Source: a plasmid
Assembly (NCBI RefSeq): GCF_053078305.1
Contig: NZ_CP166875.1
Length of the DNA: 64,000 bases
Strand: one strand, 5' to 3'
Shown here: positions 30,001-33,000 of the stretch, one piece after another
Numbering within the stretch: the stretch's first letter is position 1
Layout: every line of letters starts with the position of its first letter
Made by a program: the position numbers

Positions 30001-33000
30001 GGCTTAAGGGCTGTCAGGACTCGCTTTTGGCTGCCATCAACAAACCGGAAGAGATGCCGGATTATCTCTTCCGTCAACTCGGTTTTAATCAGACCTGGCA
30101 TGAGTGGAAGCGGGACGAACAGCACAGGCAACAACAACGCCGGCCCGGACACTACCGGGGCATGAGTATGTAATGTCAGGGACAGCTATACGCCATAAAA
30201 AAATGAAATAGATGGCCTCTCTATAAAGAGGCCATGATATTTACTAACCCTGTTCGTTAATACATTCTATAAAGTTTTTATGTAGGCTATCTATATTTTC
30301 TCGGGTATGAATAGCTGATATTGCACAACGTAGAATTGCCTTTCCCTCTTCCACTGTAGGATACATAGCAACGGTTGTAGCAAAACCACGATCATGCATT
30401 TTTTTGCATATCGTTATAGCTTTTTCTTCATTGCCAATTAACAATCCACGTATTGGCATTGTAGTCCCTTTGTTTATGACTTCGGTTTCATTAAATTTGT
30501 CATCAAAGTATTTTATAACTTGTTGTAAGTCATTTTGACGCAAGGATACTGTGCCATCGAGGTGTAAATCTGCTGCTGCGATACATGCAGCAATTCCTGG
30601 TAATGATGGTGGACCACCAAAAGCATAGGTAGTTCCATACGTTTTTATAAAGTTTATGGTGTCAGGATAATTGCATGCAATAAATCCACCATGAGAGCCA
30701 AACGCTTTAGATAATGAACCAGCGATAATAATTCTGTCATCAAGTTTGTTATCCAGACAAGACATTACATATCCGGAGCCATTTTTCCCATATATTGACA
30801 TGCCATGAGCATCATCAATGTAAGCATACCCATCAAATCTGTTAGCCATTCTAACAATAAATTCGACAGGAGCCACCCCACCCATCGAACCGACACTATC
30901 AGATATAGATATTGGTACCATATTATTTATTGAAGCATATTTAAACGCTTCTTCTATATCATTTTTATGTTGAAAGTCAACCCTGATTGTTTCACCGAAC
31001 TGTTGTAATAGTCCTCTATTTATTTGCAATGTTGCATGCGCTGTTTTCTCTAAAATAAAATATGGTTTTTTATTAAACTTGTAATTAGGTAGTGTTCCTG
31101 ATGCAAGAAGTGGGAGTACAGCTAAATGGCATGGAGTAACCGCATTAAATGTTAATGTGTGCGCCCCATTCATTATTTTATTTAATCTCTTTTCCAATTG
31201 CTCGAATAAATCTACTTTTACGCGCGTTCTGGCGACCGAAAGTTGGACTCCAAATCTTTCAATTGCATTAGCGATTGCATGTTTTAGATTTTCATGTGTT
31301 TCCAGTCCAAGATAAGAGCATGACACAAACTCAATCATCTCCCTCCCATCATTAACAGTGATTACCTTACCATTTCTTCTGGTGATCACTAGTTCATTTA
31401 TATGTTCGTTAAATACTCTTGTTTGGTATTTGATTGAACGTTCTATCTTTTTCTTTTGCCAATTCATTTTTTATTATTCCCTATAATAATAGTTACGAAC
31501 ATTGACAATAATGCAAGAATAAGACAACTAATACTTAAAGTGGTTCCCAAAAAAACTCCATTATCGCTTATTTTTACTGAAAGGAAACTGATTGTCCCTG
31601 CGCTTACTGTTTGAGTAAAGCCTGTAATTGATGCTGCTAAACCAGTTCGTGAACCGTTTATCTGCAATGAGATGAAATTAGCTATTGGATAGTATGCGCC
31701 AAGAGTTAAATTGAAAATCATTGCTCCAATAACACATATTATAAAAGCATCATTTAATATAAGAAAAGGTGTAACTGATATTGCATTTAGGGGAAATAAG
31801 ACCCATGGGTTTGATATTTTTTCGATTTTTGACAATTGGTTTCCAATGATGAAAAACAAAACTGACAGGGAAAAAACAACAGAGTAGTGAAATGTATTTA
31901 ATCCATAATCACTCATAAATAGTGCAGGTGATATTGATATGTAGCAAAATAGTGAGCTTAGCATTAGTGAAACGAGTATTGTCCCGCAGATGAAATCTTT
32001 AGTCACAAATTTTACATTATCTTGATGTGTTTTTTTCTCCTGTTTATTAGTCTCTTTAGGTGACAGGAGTATGGTTAGAATGCTAAATGCACCCATTACA
32101 ATAAATATTACATTCCAGTTATAATAATCAAGTATTAATGCTCCGGCCAGAGGTGCTATTAATGGTATTATCGCACTTGTTGATGATATGTCAGAAAGTG
32201 CTCTTTTTAGCTTTAGTGGTGGAAAAGACTCTTTAGCAATGGCTTTTGATATTACAGGTCCGGCACCTGCACCTATTGCCTGTAGAATTCTACCCAAAAG
32301 AAGCATATTTAAATCATTGGCCATAAAACATACAATACTGCCAATAAGAAATATAATTAAGCATATAGTCATTACGCGTACTTTTCCGAAATAATCACCT
32401 ATGGTTCCTGATATCAGTTGACTAAATGCAAATACAATAAGAAATCCACTAATACTTAGTTGAATTAATGAGTAGTCAGCATGAAATGCTTTCTGTAGTT
32501 CTGGTAACGCAGGCACAATCATGTCAGTTGATAATGCCGATAATGATGCAGCAAGAACAAGGTAAATATATAGTTTTGTCATAATTAATCCCTGATAAAA
32601 ATATTCTTATTTATCATATTTAAAATGCTTACGCCATCGGTATGTTTTATATTTTGAGATAGCACTACGATAGTGTTTGAGTAGAAACTAATGGGTACTC
32701 CCAGATGCATATTCAGGTTGATGGAAGGGGGTAAAAATCCCCGTGCTGAACCTTCCATCCGGAGGGAGGAAACTTATCATTTTAACCTGTTCGTCCGTCG
32801 GAATAGTCGAAATCGATCGCGCATCGCTTTTGTGAATAGTTATGCAAGTACCTGAAAACGATTCTGACGCATTTTTTCGGTTTAGCCTGGGGTTTCCTTG
32901 TCTTTTTGCGTTTTTGCGTCAGAACGCGTATGAGAGCGTTTCAGCGGTACGTACAATTAAGGGATTATGGTAAATCCCCTTACTGTCTGCCCTCGTATCC

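What the first reader, a model, noticed from the sequence alone, without database searches (positions are those of the whole stretch)
30244..32980. AT-rich two-gene islet: MFS exporter plus alpha-oxoamine-synthase-family PLP enzyme of unknown product
Two translationally coupled minus-strand genes (ATGA overlap) sit in a visibly AT-rich block between GC-richer neighbours. The 407-aa enzyme carries the PLP-lysine motif SLSKAFGSHGG of the alpha-oxoamine synthase family (BioF, Kbl, ALAS, serine palmitoyltransferase, CqsA-type autoinducer synthases). There are no biotin, heme, threonine or sphingolipid genes nearby, and the pairing with an exporter suggests a secreted amino-ketone or signalling compound. 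The 400-bp leader (32583-32980) has a strong hairpin (gatggaagg...ccttccatc) and a copy of the cagaacgcg / gcgtttc repeat motif.
Basis: partly seen in the sequence, partly recalled or inferred. Interest (0 to 1): 0.62.

Follow-up and report, generated by a model that had tools for sequence, protein, structure and literature searches.

The report
Plasmid-borne pyrazine synthase plus exporter
This two-gene block on an E. coli plasmid is the already published "Pyr" enzyme, which joins tyrosine or phenylalanine to succinyl-CoA to give amino-ketones that become pyrazine signals, together with its partner efflux pump; the new detail is that the pair sits where related small plasmids carry colicin toxin genes.

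Summary
Two minus-strand genes, an MFS transporter (31464-32582) and a 407-aa alpha-oxoamine-synthase-family PLP enzyme (30244-31467), overlap by ATGA in a block of 33-37% GC between 50-59% GC flanks.

The window is an E. coli (mostly STEC) IncF plasmid. The enzyme fails all NCBIfam cut-offs for BioF, Kbl, ALAS, SPT and CqsA. It scores 452 bits (cut-off 342) on NF005697/PRK07505, which NCBI labels "hypothetical protein".

That family is no longer unknown. The enzyme is 76% identical, without gaps, to Klebsiella oxytoca Pyr (Hamchand et al., Nat Commun 2024). I tied Pyr to my Klebsiella loci through the paper's knockout-primer arms. [quoted passage not shown] The amino-ketones (PALA, TALA) dimerise to pyrazine autoinducers. 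The paper also expressed a STEC homolog and obtained the same products.

New context:
- The islet is a 2.9-kb fragment of a 6.7-kb MobQ plasmid whose only cargo is this pair.
- It occupies the slot that holds colicin E operons in sister plasmids.
- Plasmids with pyr deleted and the MFS gene intact also circulate.
- The "leader" hairpin and repeat motif are shared plasmid backbone.

The parts
29950..30173 (+). 3' remnant of the small plasmid's mobQ relaxase gene (last ~74 codons). It marks one end of the captured plasmid fragment.
   Evidence: Window 29950-32875 is 96.9% identical to plasmid NZ_CP187207.1 positions 3694-769. mobQ is annotated there at 3471-5690. An ORF at 29928-30173 ends at the matching position.
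30212..30235 (.). Bidirectional terminator-like hairpin (10-bp stem) between the convergent pyr and mobQ ends.
   Evidence: Found on both strands by the terminator scan, 9 nt after the pyr stop codon.
30244..31467 (-). pyr: a Pyr/PqrA-type alpha-oxoamine synthase (PLP-dependent). Condenses L-Tyr or L-Phe with succinyl-CoA to give TALA or PALA.
   Evidence: NF005697 452 bits against a cut-off of 342, and below the cut-off for BioF, Kbl, SPT, ALAS and CqsA. 76% identity over 404 aa, no gaps, to Klebsiella Pyr, which was tied to the paper by primer arms. His144, Asp218-Asp219-Ala220-His221 and Lys254 are present. Chemistry comes from PMC11480411.
31464..32582 (-). MFS transporter (DHA1, Bcr/CflA-like, 12-TM type), translationally coupled to pyr. 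Presumed exporter of the amino-ketones or pyrazines.
   Evidence: Pfam MFS_1 E = 3e-41. Best NCBIfam hit is Bcr/CflA efflux, 173 bits, below the 200.9 cut-off. 62% identical over 363 aa to the MFS of the Klebsiella pyr operon. MFS adjacency recurs in Brenneria, Nocardia, Acinetobacter and Salmonella.
32583..32727 (-). Cassette-specific, AT-rich upstream region. Presumed promoter and RBS for the MFS-pyr operon.
   Evidence: Shared with the pyr plasmids but not with colicin plasmids. No strong sigma-70 match was found on this strand, so the promoter is not located.
32728..32941 (.). Small-plasmid backbone segment shared with colicin E plasmids. Contains most of the hairpin (32720-32759), the inverted repeat 32862-32871/32915-32924 and the CAGAACGCG motif.
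   Evidence: Alignment A1 with four colicin-type plasmids and two pyr-type plasmids. blastn boundaries. Inverted repeats.

Best explanation
The block is a mobile pyr cassette. Pyr, a PLP-dependent alpha-oxoamine synthase of the PqrA/Pyr clade (NCBIfam NF005697), carries out a decarboxylative Claisen condensation of L-tyrosine or L-phenylalanine with succinyl-CoA. The products are the gamma-keto-delta-amino acids TALA and PALA. These dimerise spontaneously, with each other or with aminoacetone, and oxidise to substituted pyrazines. This chemistry is shown in the literature for the Klebsiella ortholog and for a STEC homolog. The translationally coupled MFS pump most likely exports these products, which is an inference from conserved gene coupling and from the alaremycin precedent. 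The cassette reached this large IncF plasmid as a 2.9-kb fragment of a 6.7-kb MobQ plasmid on which it is the only cargo. It came from a low-GC donor, not from Klebsiella. The E. coli version lacks the aromatic amino-acid permease of the Klebsiella operon and presumably relies on host uptake or biosynthesis of Tyr and Phe (inferred).
For: Family: NF005697 451.8 bits (cut-off 342). BioF scores 166 (cut-off 426), Kbl 149 (460), SPT no more than 136 (at least 500), ALAS 104 (339) and CqsA-type 68 (428). Six sampled homologs all pass NF005697. The nearest solved structure is the natural-product AOS Alb29, E = 1.5e-31, with the PLP-Lys, His and Asp-x-x-His positions aligned. Orthology: 76% identity over 404 aa with no gaps to the K. 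oxytoca-complex protein P0010. The neighbouring MFS is 62% identical. [quoted passage not shown] The paper's pyrko_R homology arm ends exactly at the base before that gene's ATG (30/30 nt), and the F arm maps 2.2 kb downstream. Function: the paper reports a delta-pyr knockout, heterologous expression and purified-enzyme assays. STEC Pyr gave pyrazines 5-9 and monomers 12 and 13 at levels similar to K. oxytoca Pyr. Among 5,426 complete E. coli genomes the only Pyr-type gene found is this one, mostly in strains named STEC. Mobility: window 29950-32875 is 97% identical to the 6,676-bp plasmid, whose genes are rep, MFS, pyr, mobQ and one hypothetical. GC3 is 0.27 against 0.63 in Klebsiella. Exporter precedent: AlmE, the MFS of the alaremycin cluster (PMC9356726).
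Against: The paper gives no accession for 'STEC (3055)' Pyr, so identity with this exact protein is inferred rather than shown. The 24% divergence from the Klebsiella enzyme could shift substrate preference. The MFS has never been tested. Pyr alone sufficed for pyrazine production in BL21 whole-culture extracts, so the pump is not needed for synthesis. MFS-only plasmids show the pump can persist without the enzyme, so it may have an independent role. No promoter or regulator was identified.
Confidence: 0.85

Rival explanations
1. The cassette is a competition module, a small-molecule counterpart of a colicin operon. PALA and TALA (5-substituted analogues of 5-aminolevulinate) or the pyrazines harm cells that lack the cassette, and the MFS pump is the immunity determinant. 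This rival concerns the biological role; the enzyme chemistry is the same as in the best explanation.
For: The pair is the sole cargo of a 6.7-kb MobQ plasmid. It lies between the same two backbone junctions (mobQ 3' end and a ~150-bp conserved segment) that flank colicin E9/E3/E5-immunity-lysis operons in sister plasmids, 4 of 5 sampled. In the window it is embedded among colicin, immunity and Exc2 genes. Plasmids with a 1-kb internal pyr deletion keep an intact MFS gene (94% aa identity, dN/dS 0.17). They occur in strains with no other pyr copy and on 170 public contigs, which resembles orphan immunity genes. Alaremycin, another succinyl-CoA-derived ALA analogue made by an AOS with an MFS exporter, inhibits porphobilinogen synthase. 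Pyrazine 7 induces iron-acquisition genes.
Against: No toxicity of PALA, TALA or the pyrazines is reported. The paper treats them as autoinducers, and BL21 expressing pyr without the pump grew and produced. The slot argument is positional only, and only five sister plasmids were sampled. The dN/dS value covers the whole divergence between lineages, not only the period after pyr was lost. In Klebsiella the operon is chromosomal and widespread, which fits a physiological or signalling role.
Confidence: 0.2
2. The enzyme is a spare housekeeping BioF or Kbl (or ALAS or SPT) paralog carried on a plasmid, and the MFS is an unrelated drug-efflux gene.
For: Pfam places it only in Aminotran_1_2. RefSeq calls it a generic class I/II aminotransferase, and some sources call homologs '8-amino-7-oxononanoate synthase 2'. 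The best MFS models are multidrug or bicyclomycin type.
Against: All equivalog models fall far below their cut-offs while NF005697 passes. There is no biotin, threonine, heme or sphingolipid context. The MFS-enzyme coupling, with overlapping reading frames, is conserved across Enterobacterales and in Nocardia. The orthologs have experimentally determined chemistry.
Confidence: 0.02
3. The enzyme is a CqsA/LqsA-type alpha-hydroxyketone autoinducer synthase that uses a fatty acyl-CoA.
For: It belongs to the same superfamily, and a signalling role is plausible. CqsA structures are weak hits (E about 2e-6).
Against: It scores 68 bits against a cut-off of 428 on the CqsA/LqsA equivalog. There is no CqsS/LqsS-type sensor kinase nearby. 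The orthologs use succinyl-CoA with Phe or Tyr.
Confidence: 0.02

Closest known systems
Pyr of Klebsiella oxytoca and its tested homologs from K. pneumoniae, F. tularensis and STEC (Hamchand et al., Nat Commun 2024, PMC11480411)
   Same: Same NCBIfam family (NF005697). 76% identity over the full length. The same overlapping MFS partner (62% identical). The STEC homolog gave the same PALA, TALA and pyrazine products.
   Different: The E. coli cassette lacks the aromatic amino-acid permease. It is much more AT-rich (GC3 0.27 against 0.63). It is plasmid-borne, on 6.7-kb MobQ plasmids and as a fragment in large IncF plasmids next to colicin genes. The paper does not discuss this context.
PqrA of Streptomyces sp. 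IB2014/016-6 (perquinoline pathway), as cited in PMC11480411
   Same: Reported to make PALA from Phe and succinyl-CoA. It was the query the authors used to find Pyr.
   Different: It belongs to a larger pathway that processes PALA further into tetrahydroisoquinolines. I had no PqrA sequence to compare, so the relationship rests on the paper.
Alb29 of Streptomyces albogriseolus (PDB 8XHA, 8I7U)
   Same: Closest solved structure by sequence (E = 1.5e-31, residues 32-391). Same fold family, with the PLP-Lys, His and Asp-x-x-His positions aligned.
   Different: Only distantly related. From my own memory it is an L-glutamate-specific enzyme that uses a fatty acyl-CoA. This was not checked here.
Alaremycin cluster almABCE (PMC9356726)
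   Same: An alpha-oxoamine synthase condenses an amino acid with succinyl-CoA to a 5-substituted ALA analogue, and an MFS transporter extrudes it. Deleting the MFS lowered extracellular product.
   Different: AlmA is ALAS-like and uses serine. Two tailoring enzymes are required. The product is a proven antibiotic that inhibits porphobilinogen synthase, whereas no toxicity is known for PALA or TALA.
Colicin E operons on small MobQ plasmids
   Same: Same plasmid backbone (mobQ region 94-97% nt identity) and the same cargo slot, bounded by the same junctions. Both have a two-part logic of a product plus a protective or export function.
   Different: Colicin operons encode a protein toxin, an immunity protein and a lysis protein, and are transcribed in the opposite direction relative to the backbone. 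The pyr cassette contains none of these proteins.

Membership tests
Pyr/PqrA-type alpha-oxoamine synthases (NCBIfam NF005697 / PRK07505) | Full-length match above the curated family cut-off | tested here: met
   451.8 bits against a cut-off of 342, covering residues 2-405. Klebsiella, Brenneria, Nocardia, Salmonella and Acinetobacter homologs also pass.
Pyr/PqrA-type alpha-oxoamine synthases (NCBIfam NF005697 / PRK07505) | Orthology to the experimentally characterised K. oxytoca Pyr | tested here: met
   76% identity, 90% positives, no gaps over 404 aa to P0010. P0010's gene is the published pyr, because the knockout-primer R arm ends at its ATG (30/30 nt) and the F arm maps 2.2 kb downstream. 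The operon description also matches.
Pyr/PqrA-type alpha-oxoamine synthases (NCBIfam NF005697 / PRK07505) | Catalytic residues of the AOS fold: PLP-binding Lys, ring-stacking His, Asp-x-x-His | tested here: met
   Lys254 (SLSKAFG), His144 and Asp218-Asp219-Ala220-His221 are present and aligned to the Alb29 motifs.
Pyr/PqrA-type alpha-oxoamine synthases (NCBIfam NF005697 / PRK07505) | Product: PALA or TALA from Phe or Tyr plus succinyl-CoA, dimerising to pyrazines | not testable with these tools
   Reported for a 'STEC (3055)' homolog by heterologous expression. No accession is given. This gene is the only Pyr-type gene in 5,426 complete E. coli genomes.
pyr operon as described in Klebsiella | Adjacent transporter gene | tested here: met
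   The MFS gene overlaps pyr by 4 nt and is 62% identical to the Klebsiella operon MFS.
pyr operon as described in Klebsiella | Adjacent tyrosine/aromatic amino-acid permease | tested here: not met
   Present downstream of pyr in Klebsiella (TIGR00837, 277 bits). Absent from the window and from the small plasmid.
BioF (8-amino-7-oxononanoate synthase) | Equivalog score and biotin gene context | tested here: not met
   TIGR00858 166 bits against a cut-off of 426. No bio genes nearby.
Kbl (glycine C-acetyltransferase) | Equivalog score and tdh context | tested here: not met
   NF005394 148.6 bits against 460, and TIGR01822 125 against 493. No tdh nearby.
ALAS / serine palmitoyltransferase | Equivalog scores | tested here: not met
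   ALAS 103.7 bits against 338.6. SPT models 82-136 bits against 500-670.
CqsA/LqsA autoinducer synthases | Equivalog score and a cognate sensor kinase | tested here: not met
   NF005526 68 bits against 428. No sensor kinase gene is adjacent.
Bcr/CflA family MFS efflux pumps | Subfamily score above the cut-off | tested here: not met
   TIGR00710 is the best hit at 173.1 bits, but this is below the 200.9 cut-off. The protein is MFS_1 by Pfam, E = 3e-41.
Colicin/bacteriocin operon | Protein toxin, immunity protein and lysis protein | tested here: not met
   The cassette encodes only an MFS and an AOS. It shares only the cargo slot with colicin operons. No PADLOC hits.

The most novel reading that the evidence does not exclude
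The pyr-MFS cassette may be a small-molecule equivalent of a colicin. It swapped into the colicin slot of MobQ plasmids. Its products, 5-benzyl- and 5-(4-hydroxybenzyl)-aminolevulinate analogues or their pyrazines, would disadvantage non-carriers. One possible route is interference with porphobilinogen synthase or iron and heme homeostasis. The MFS would act as the immunity determinant, and the pyr-deleted plasmids would be immunity-only cheaters. A more remote possibility is that such cassettes underlie some of the historic low-molecular-weight, plasmid-encoded 'microcins' whose genes were never identified, such as MccD93 (under 1 kDa; reviews say its immunity involves efflux).
Probability: 0.15. 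Interest if true: 0.7.

Novelty: already known. Interest (0 to 1): 0.3.

Why it matters
The enzyme and its chemistry were published in 2024, including a Shiga-toxin E. coli homolog, so the core finding is not new. NCBIfam still labels the family "hypothetical protein" and RefSeq calls the gene a generic aminotransferase. A firm link from NF005697 to Pyr would therefore improve annotation of a gene seen on more than 1,000 public E. coli and Shigella contigs.

The mobile-element context appears undescribed. The cassette is the only cargo of a colicin-type small plasmid, it has been captured next to colicin genes on STEC plasmids, and exporter-only derivatives circulate. This raises a testable question: are these pyrazines or amino-ketones purely signals, or are they also weapons with the pump as protection?

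Tried and rejected
1. Housekeeping BioF, Kbl, ALAS, SPT or CqsA assignment: rejected by NCBIfam cut-offs.

2. Riboswitch or structured leader: no Rfam match at E up to 1, fold z = -1.42, and the hairpin and repeat are shared with colicin plasmids.

3. Anti-phage defence role: no PADLOC hits.

4. Microcin D93 or 15m identity:
- Only indirect hints exist. MccD93 genes are unknown, the compound is under 1 kDa, and reviews say immunity involves efflux.
- The 1986 paper was not available. I found nothing that links the reported DNA-synthesis inhibition to PALA or TALA.
- I kept this only as a remote part of the novel case.

5. Looking for the Pyr coding sequence or an accession in the paper's SI failed. 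I used the knockout primers instead.

6. I first assumed the window follows NZ_CP045714.1 beyond the colicin region. Translating the presumed radical-SAM gene coordinates gave stop codons. The window's layout diverges there, so I dropped that side observation.

7. The promoter scan found no convincing sigma-70 site upstream of the MFS gene, and the number of sites was at the chance level.

8. No structure prediction was run. It would not resolve substrate choice better than the published biochemistry.
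Full report
**1. Observation**

They overlap by ATGA, which can be read directly in the sequence. The block has 33-37% GC. The GntP and glycerate-kinase side has 50-59% GC and the other side about 43-47%. The gene GC values are 0.36 and 0.33 against a window mean of 0.476. The enzyme carries SLSKAFGSHGG with Lys254. No biotin, heme, threonine or sphingolipid genes lie nearby. 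The hairpin GATGGAAGG/CCTTCCATC exists at 32720-32759.

**2. Where the window comes from**

The region is 100% identical to large E. coli plasmids, mostly from STEC strains. An example is pFHI_NMBU_11_02, which is IncFII. In the window, the neighbours are:
- GntP permease and glycerate kinase on one side
- An Exc2 entry-exclusion lipoprotein at 32980-33408 (NF033828)
- A pore-forming colicin at 34322-35818
- Two colicin-immunity genes

**3. The islet is a captured piece of a small plasmid**

Window 29950-32875 is 97% identical to a 6,676-bp mobilisable plasmid, NZ_CP187207.1. That plasmid's genes are rep, MFS, the enzyme, mobQ and one small hypothetical gene. The captured fragment includes:
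- The last ~74 codons of mobQ (29950-30173)
- A bidirectional terminator hairpin (30212-30235)
- Both cassette genes
- The upstream region

The mobQ backbone is shared at 94-97% nucleotide identity with hundreds of small E. coli, Salmonella and Shigella plasmids. Homology between the pyr plasmid and colicin-type sisters is confined to two stretches, the mobQ region and a ~150-bp segment. The cargo lies between them. In four of five sampled sisters that slot holds a colicin E9/E3/E5-type operon or its immunity and lysis remnant. The fifth is a cointegrate of two small plasmids. The 4.2-kb versions are too small to hold such cargo, judging by size only.

**4. The 'leader'**

- No Rfam family matches 29800-33500.
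- The 293-nt upstream RNA does not fold better than shuffles (z = -1.42).
- The promoter scan is at chance level.
- Alignment A1 shows that the 3' arm of the hairpin, an inner GGGAT/ATCCC stem and the CAGAACGCG motif are conserved in colicin plasmids.
- CAGAACGCG occurs three times in the window, once inside the enzyme ORF.

These are backbone features. Only about 145 bp (32583-32727) is specific to the cassette.

**5. What the enzyme is**

Pfam sees only Aminotran_1_2, weakly (E = 1.7e-13). NCBIfam is decisive. NF005697 (PRK07505, described as 'hypothetical protein') scores 451.8 bits against a cut-off of 342. The other models fall far short:

| Model | Score (bits) | Cut-off (bits) |
|---|---|---|
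| BioF | 166 | 426 |
| Kbl | 149 | 460 |
| SPT | up to 136 | at least 500 |
| ALAS | 104 | 339 |
| CqsA/LqsA type | 68 | 428 |

The closest solved structures are those of Alb29, a natural-product AOS from Streptomyces (E = 1.5e-31). The His, Asp-x-x-His and Lys motifs align.

Homologs of 76-77% identity are common. They occur in the Klebsiella oxytoca complex chromosome and on Klebsiella IncF plasmids. There the order is always MFS, enzyme, then an aromatic amino-acid permease closest to tryptophan permeases.

The MFS-enzyme pairing also occurs elsewhere:
- Brenneria.
- Nocardia, with the gene order reversed but the genes still overlapping.
- Acinetobacter and Salmonella, at about 45% identity and with extra genes: an ATP-grasp-like and an AMP-binding-like gene, plus an O-methyltransferase in Salmonella.
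- Two sampled contexts show no adjacent MFS: Photobacterium and an Enterobacter plasmid.

**6. The family is published**

Hamchand et al. [quoted passage not shown] These dimerise with each other or with aminoacetone to give pyrazines 5-9.

The supporting experiments are a delta-pyr knockout, expression of pyr alone in BL21, and purified-enzyme assays. Pyrazine 7 induces enterobactin and iron-acquisition genes. The authors also expressed homologs from K. pneumoniae, F. tularensis and 'STEC (3055)'. The STEC enzyme gave all products at levels close to the K. oxytoca enzyme (source data).

The paper gives no accession, so I used its knockout primers:
- The pyrko_R homology arm matches my Klebsiella loci at 7971-8000 (30/30 nt). 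It ends at the base before the enzyme's ATG at 8001.
- The F arm matches 2.2 kb downstream at 84% identity, which is expected for a sister species.

Their pyr is therefore the gene encoding P0010. P0010 is 76% identical to the window's protein without gaps. The neighbouring MFS proteins are 62% identical.

A sensitive DNA search with the Klebsiella operon finds no other Pyr-type gene in 5,426 complete E. coli genomes. The carriers of this one are mostly named STEC. The published STEC Pyr is thus very probably this protein or a near-identical allele. That last step is an inference.

**7. Mechanism**

Shown in the literature for orthologs: a PLP-dependent decarboxylative Claisen condensation of Tyr or Phe with succinyl-CoA, followed by spontaneous dimerisation and oxidation to pyrazines.

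Inferred here:
- The coupled MFS exports the amino-ketones or pyrazines. The support is conserved, overlapping gene coupling across genera. The alaremycin cluster is a precedent: deleting the MFS AlmE lowered extracellular product.
- E. coli supplies Tyr and Phe without the dedicated permease.
- The cassette came from a low-GC donor (GC3 0.27 against 0.63 in Klebsiella).

**8. What is not in the paper**

A text search found no mention of the plasmid location or the colicin context. Besides the colicin-slot position, there are 5,654-bp plasmids in which 1,004 bp of pyr are deleted. The remnant reads MNWQ followed by a stop. The MFS gene in these plasmids is intact, with 94% aa identity and dN/dS 0.17 against the window allele. 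The three complete genomes that carry them have no other pyr copy.

In public assemblies:
- The window allele of Pyr is seen on at least 1,000 contigs, the longest 126 kb.
- The small-plasmid allele is seen on at least 1,000 contigs, the longest 18 kb, and also in Shigella.
- The MFS-only allele is seen on 170 contigs, none longer than 9.6 kb.

This pattern is compatible with the pump having value on its own, for example protection against the product made by neighbours. It is equally compatible with decay in progress. The dN/dS value spans the whole divergence between lineages, not only the time since pyr was lost.

PALA and TALA are 5-substituted ALA analogues. Alaremycin, a related succinyl-CoA-derived ALA analogue, inhibits porphobilinogen synthase. 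That makes an antagonistic role conceivable, but no toxicity data exist. I give it about 0.15-0.2.

A link to the never-cloned microcin D93 is only a remote lead. MccD93 is under 1 kDa, and reviews state that its genes are unidentified and that immunity involves efflux.

**9. Verdict**

The thing itself is already known as Pyr with its operon transporter. The leader claims do not hold as regulation. The residual interest lies in two points. NF005697 is still unnamed in NCBIfam. The undescribed mobile, colicin-slot context also raises the signal-or-weapon question.

Noticed in passing
L003 (NZ_CP075856.1, 5,654 bp); equivalent to window 30440-31443 being deleted: Small plasmids with a 1,004-bp internal deletion of pyr (the remnant reads MNWQ then a stop) keep an intact 371-aa MFS gene. 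They occur in three complete E. coli genomes that have no other pyr copy, and on 170 public contigs.
   Followed up: partly
window 32876-36716: A mosaic of colicin-plasmid remnants lies next to the cassette: an Exc2 entry-exclusion lipoprotein (32980-33408), a 498-aa pore-forming colicin (34322-35818), and two immunity genes (35841-36374 and 36426-36716). RefSeq annotates the immunity genes as Cui and colicin K immunity. It also annotates a lysis pseudogene in the identical record.
   Followed up: partly
E. coli chromosomes, e.g. NZ_CP028379.1 5047476-5047860: 89 E. coli chromosomes (O145:H28 STEC and others) carry an unannotated ~385-bp stretch 74.6% identical to part of the Klebsiella pyr-operon aromatic amino-acid permease. 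No pyr or MFS lies beside it. It may be a permease pseudogene remnant.
   Followed up: no
L004-L006, positions 7971-8000 and 10185-10229: The published delta-pyr::spec primer arms map so that the replaced interval (8001-10184 in these sister-species loci) would cover three things: pyr, about three-quarters of the downstream permease gene, and the last 28 nt of the overlapping MFS gene. The F arm matches at only 84% in these loci, so this needs checking in the ATCC 8724 genome.
   Followed up: no
L007 8001-13358 (Salmonella plasmid contig) and L021 6001-10437 (Acinetobacter): More distant NF005697 members (~45% identity) sit in an uncharacterised 4-5 gene cluster. The cluster holds the AOS, an O-methyltransferase (Salmonella only), a RimK/ATP-grasp-like protein, an MFS and a weak AMP-binding-like protein. 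This suggests further tailored amino-ketone products.
   Followed up: partly
window 30244-32582 compared with L005 6889-9230: The E. coli cassette has GC3 of 0.27 against 0.63 for the Klebsiella ortholog, and the small plasmid's backbone has 49% GC against 35% for its cargo. The donor was a low-GC organism, not Klebsiella. Photobacterium has a 62%-identical homolog with 34% GC.
   Followed up: partly
window 27138-29559: A GntP-family permease and a glycerate kinase lie immediately beside the cassette on the plasmid. In the matching RefSeq record a sugar-diacid regulator gene precedes them. This is a plasmid-borne carbon-utilisation module unrelated to the finding.
   Followed up: no
window beyond ~37000: The window's gene order departs from the best-matching record NZ_CP045714.1 downstream of the colicin region. 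Coordinates projected from that record gave stop codons. Annotation transferred from that record is therefore reliable only for about 27000-37000.
   Followed up: no
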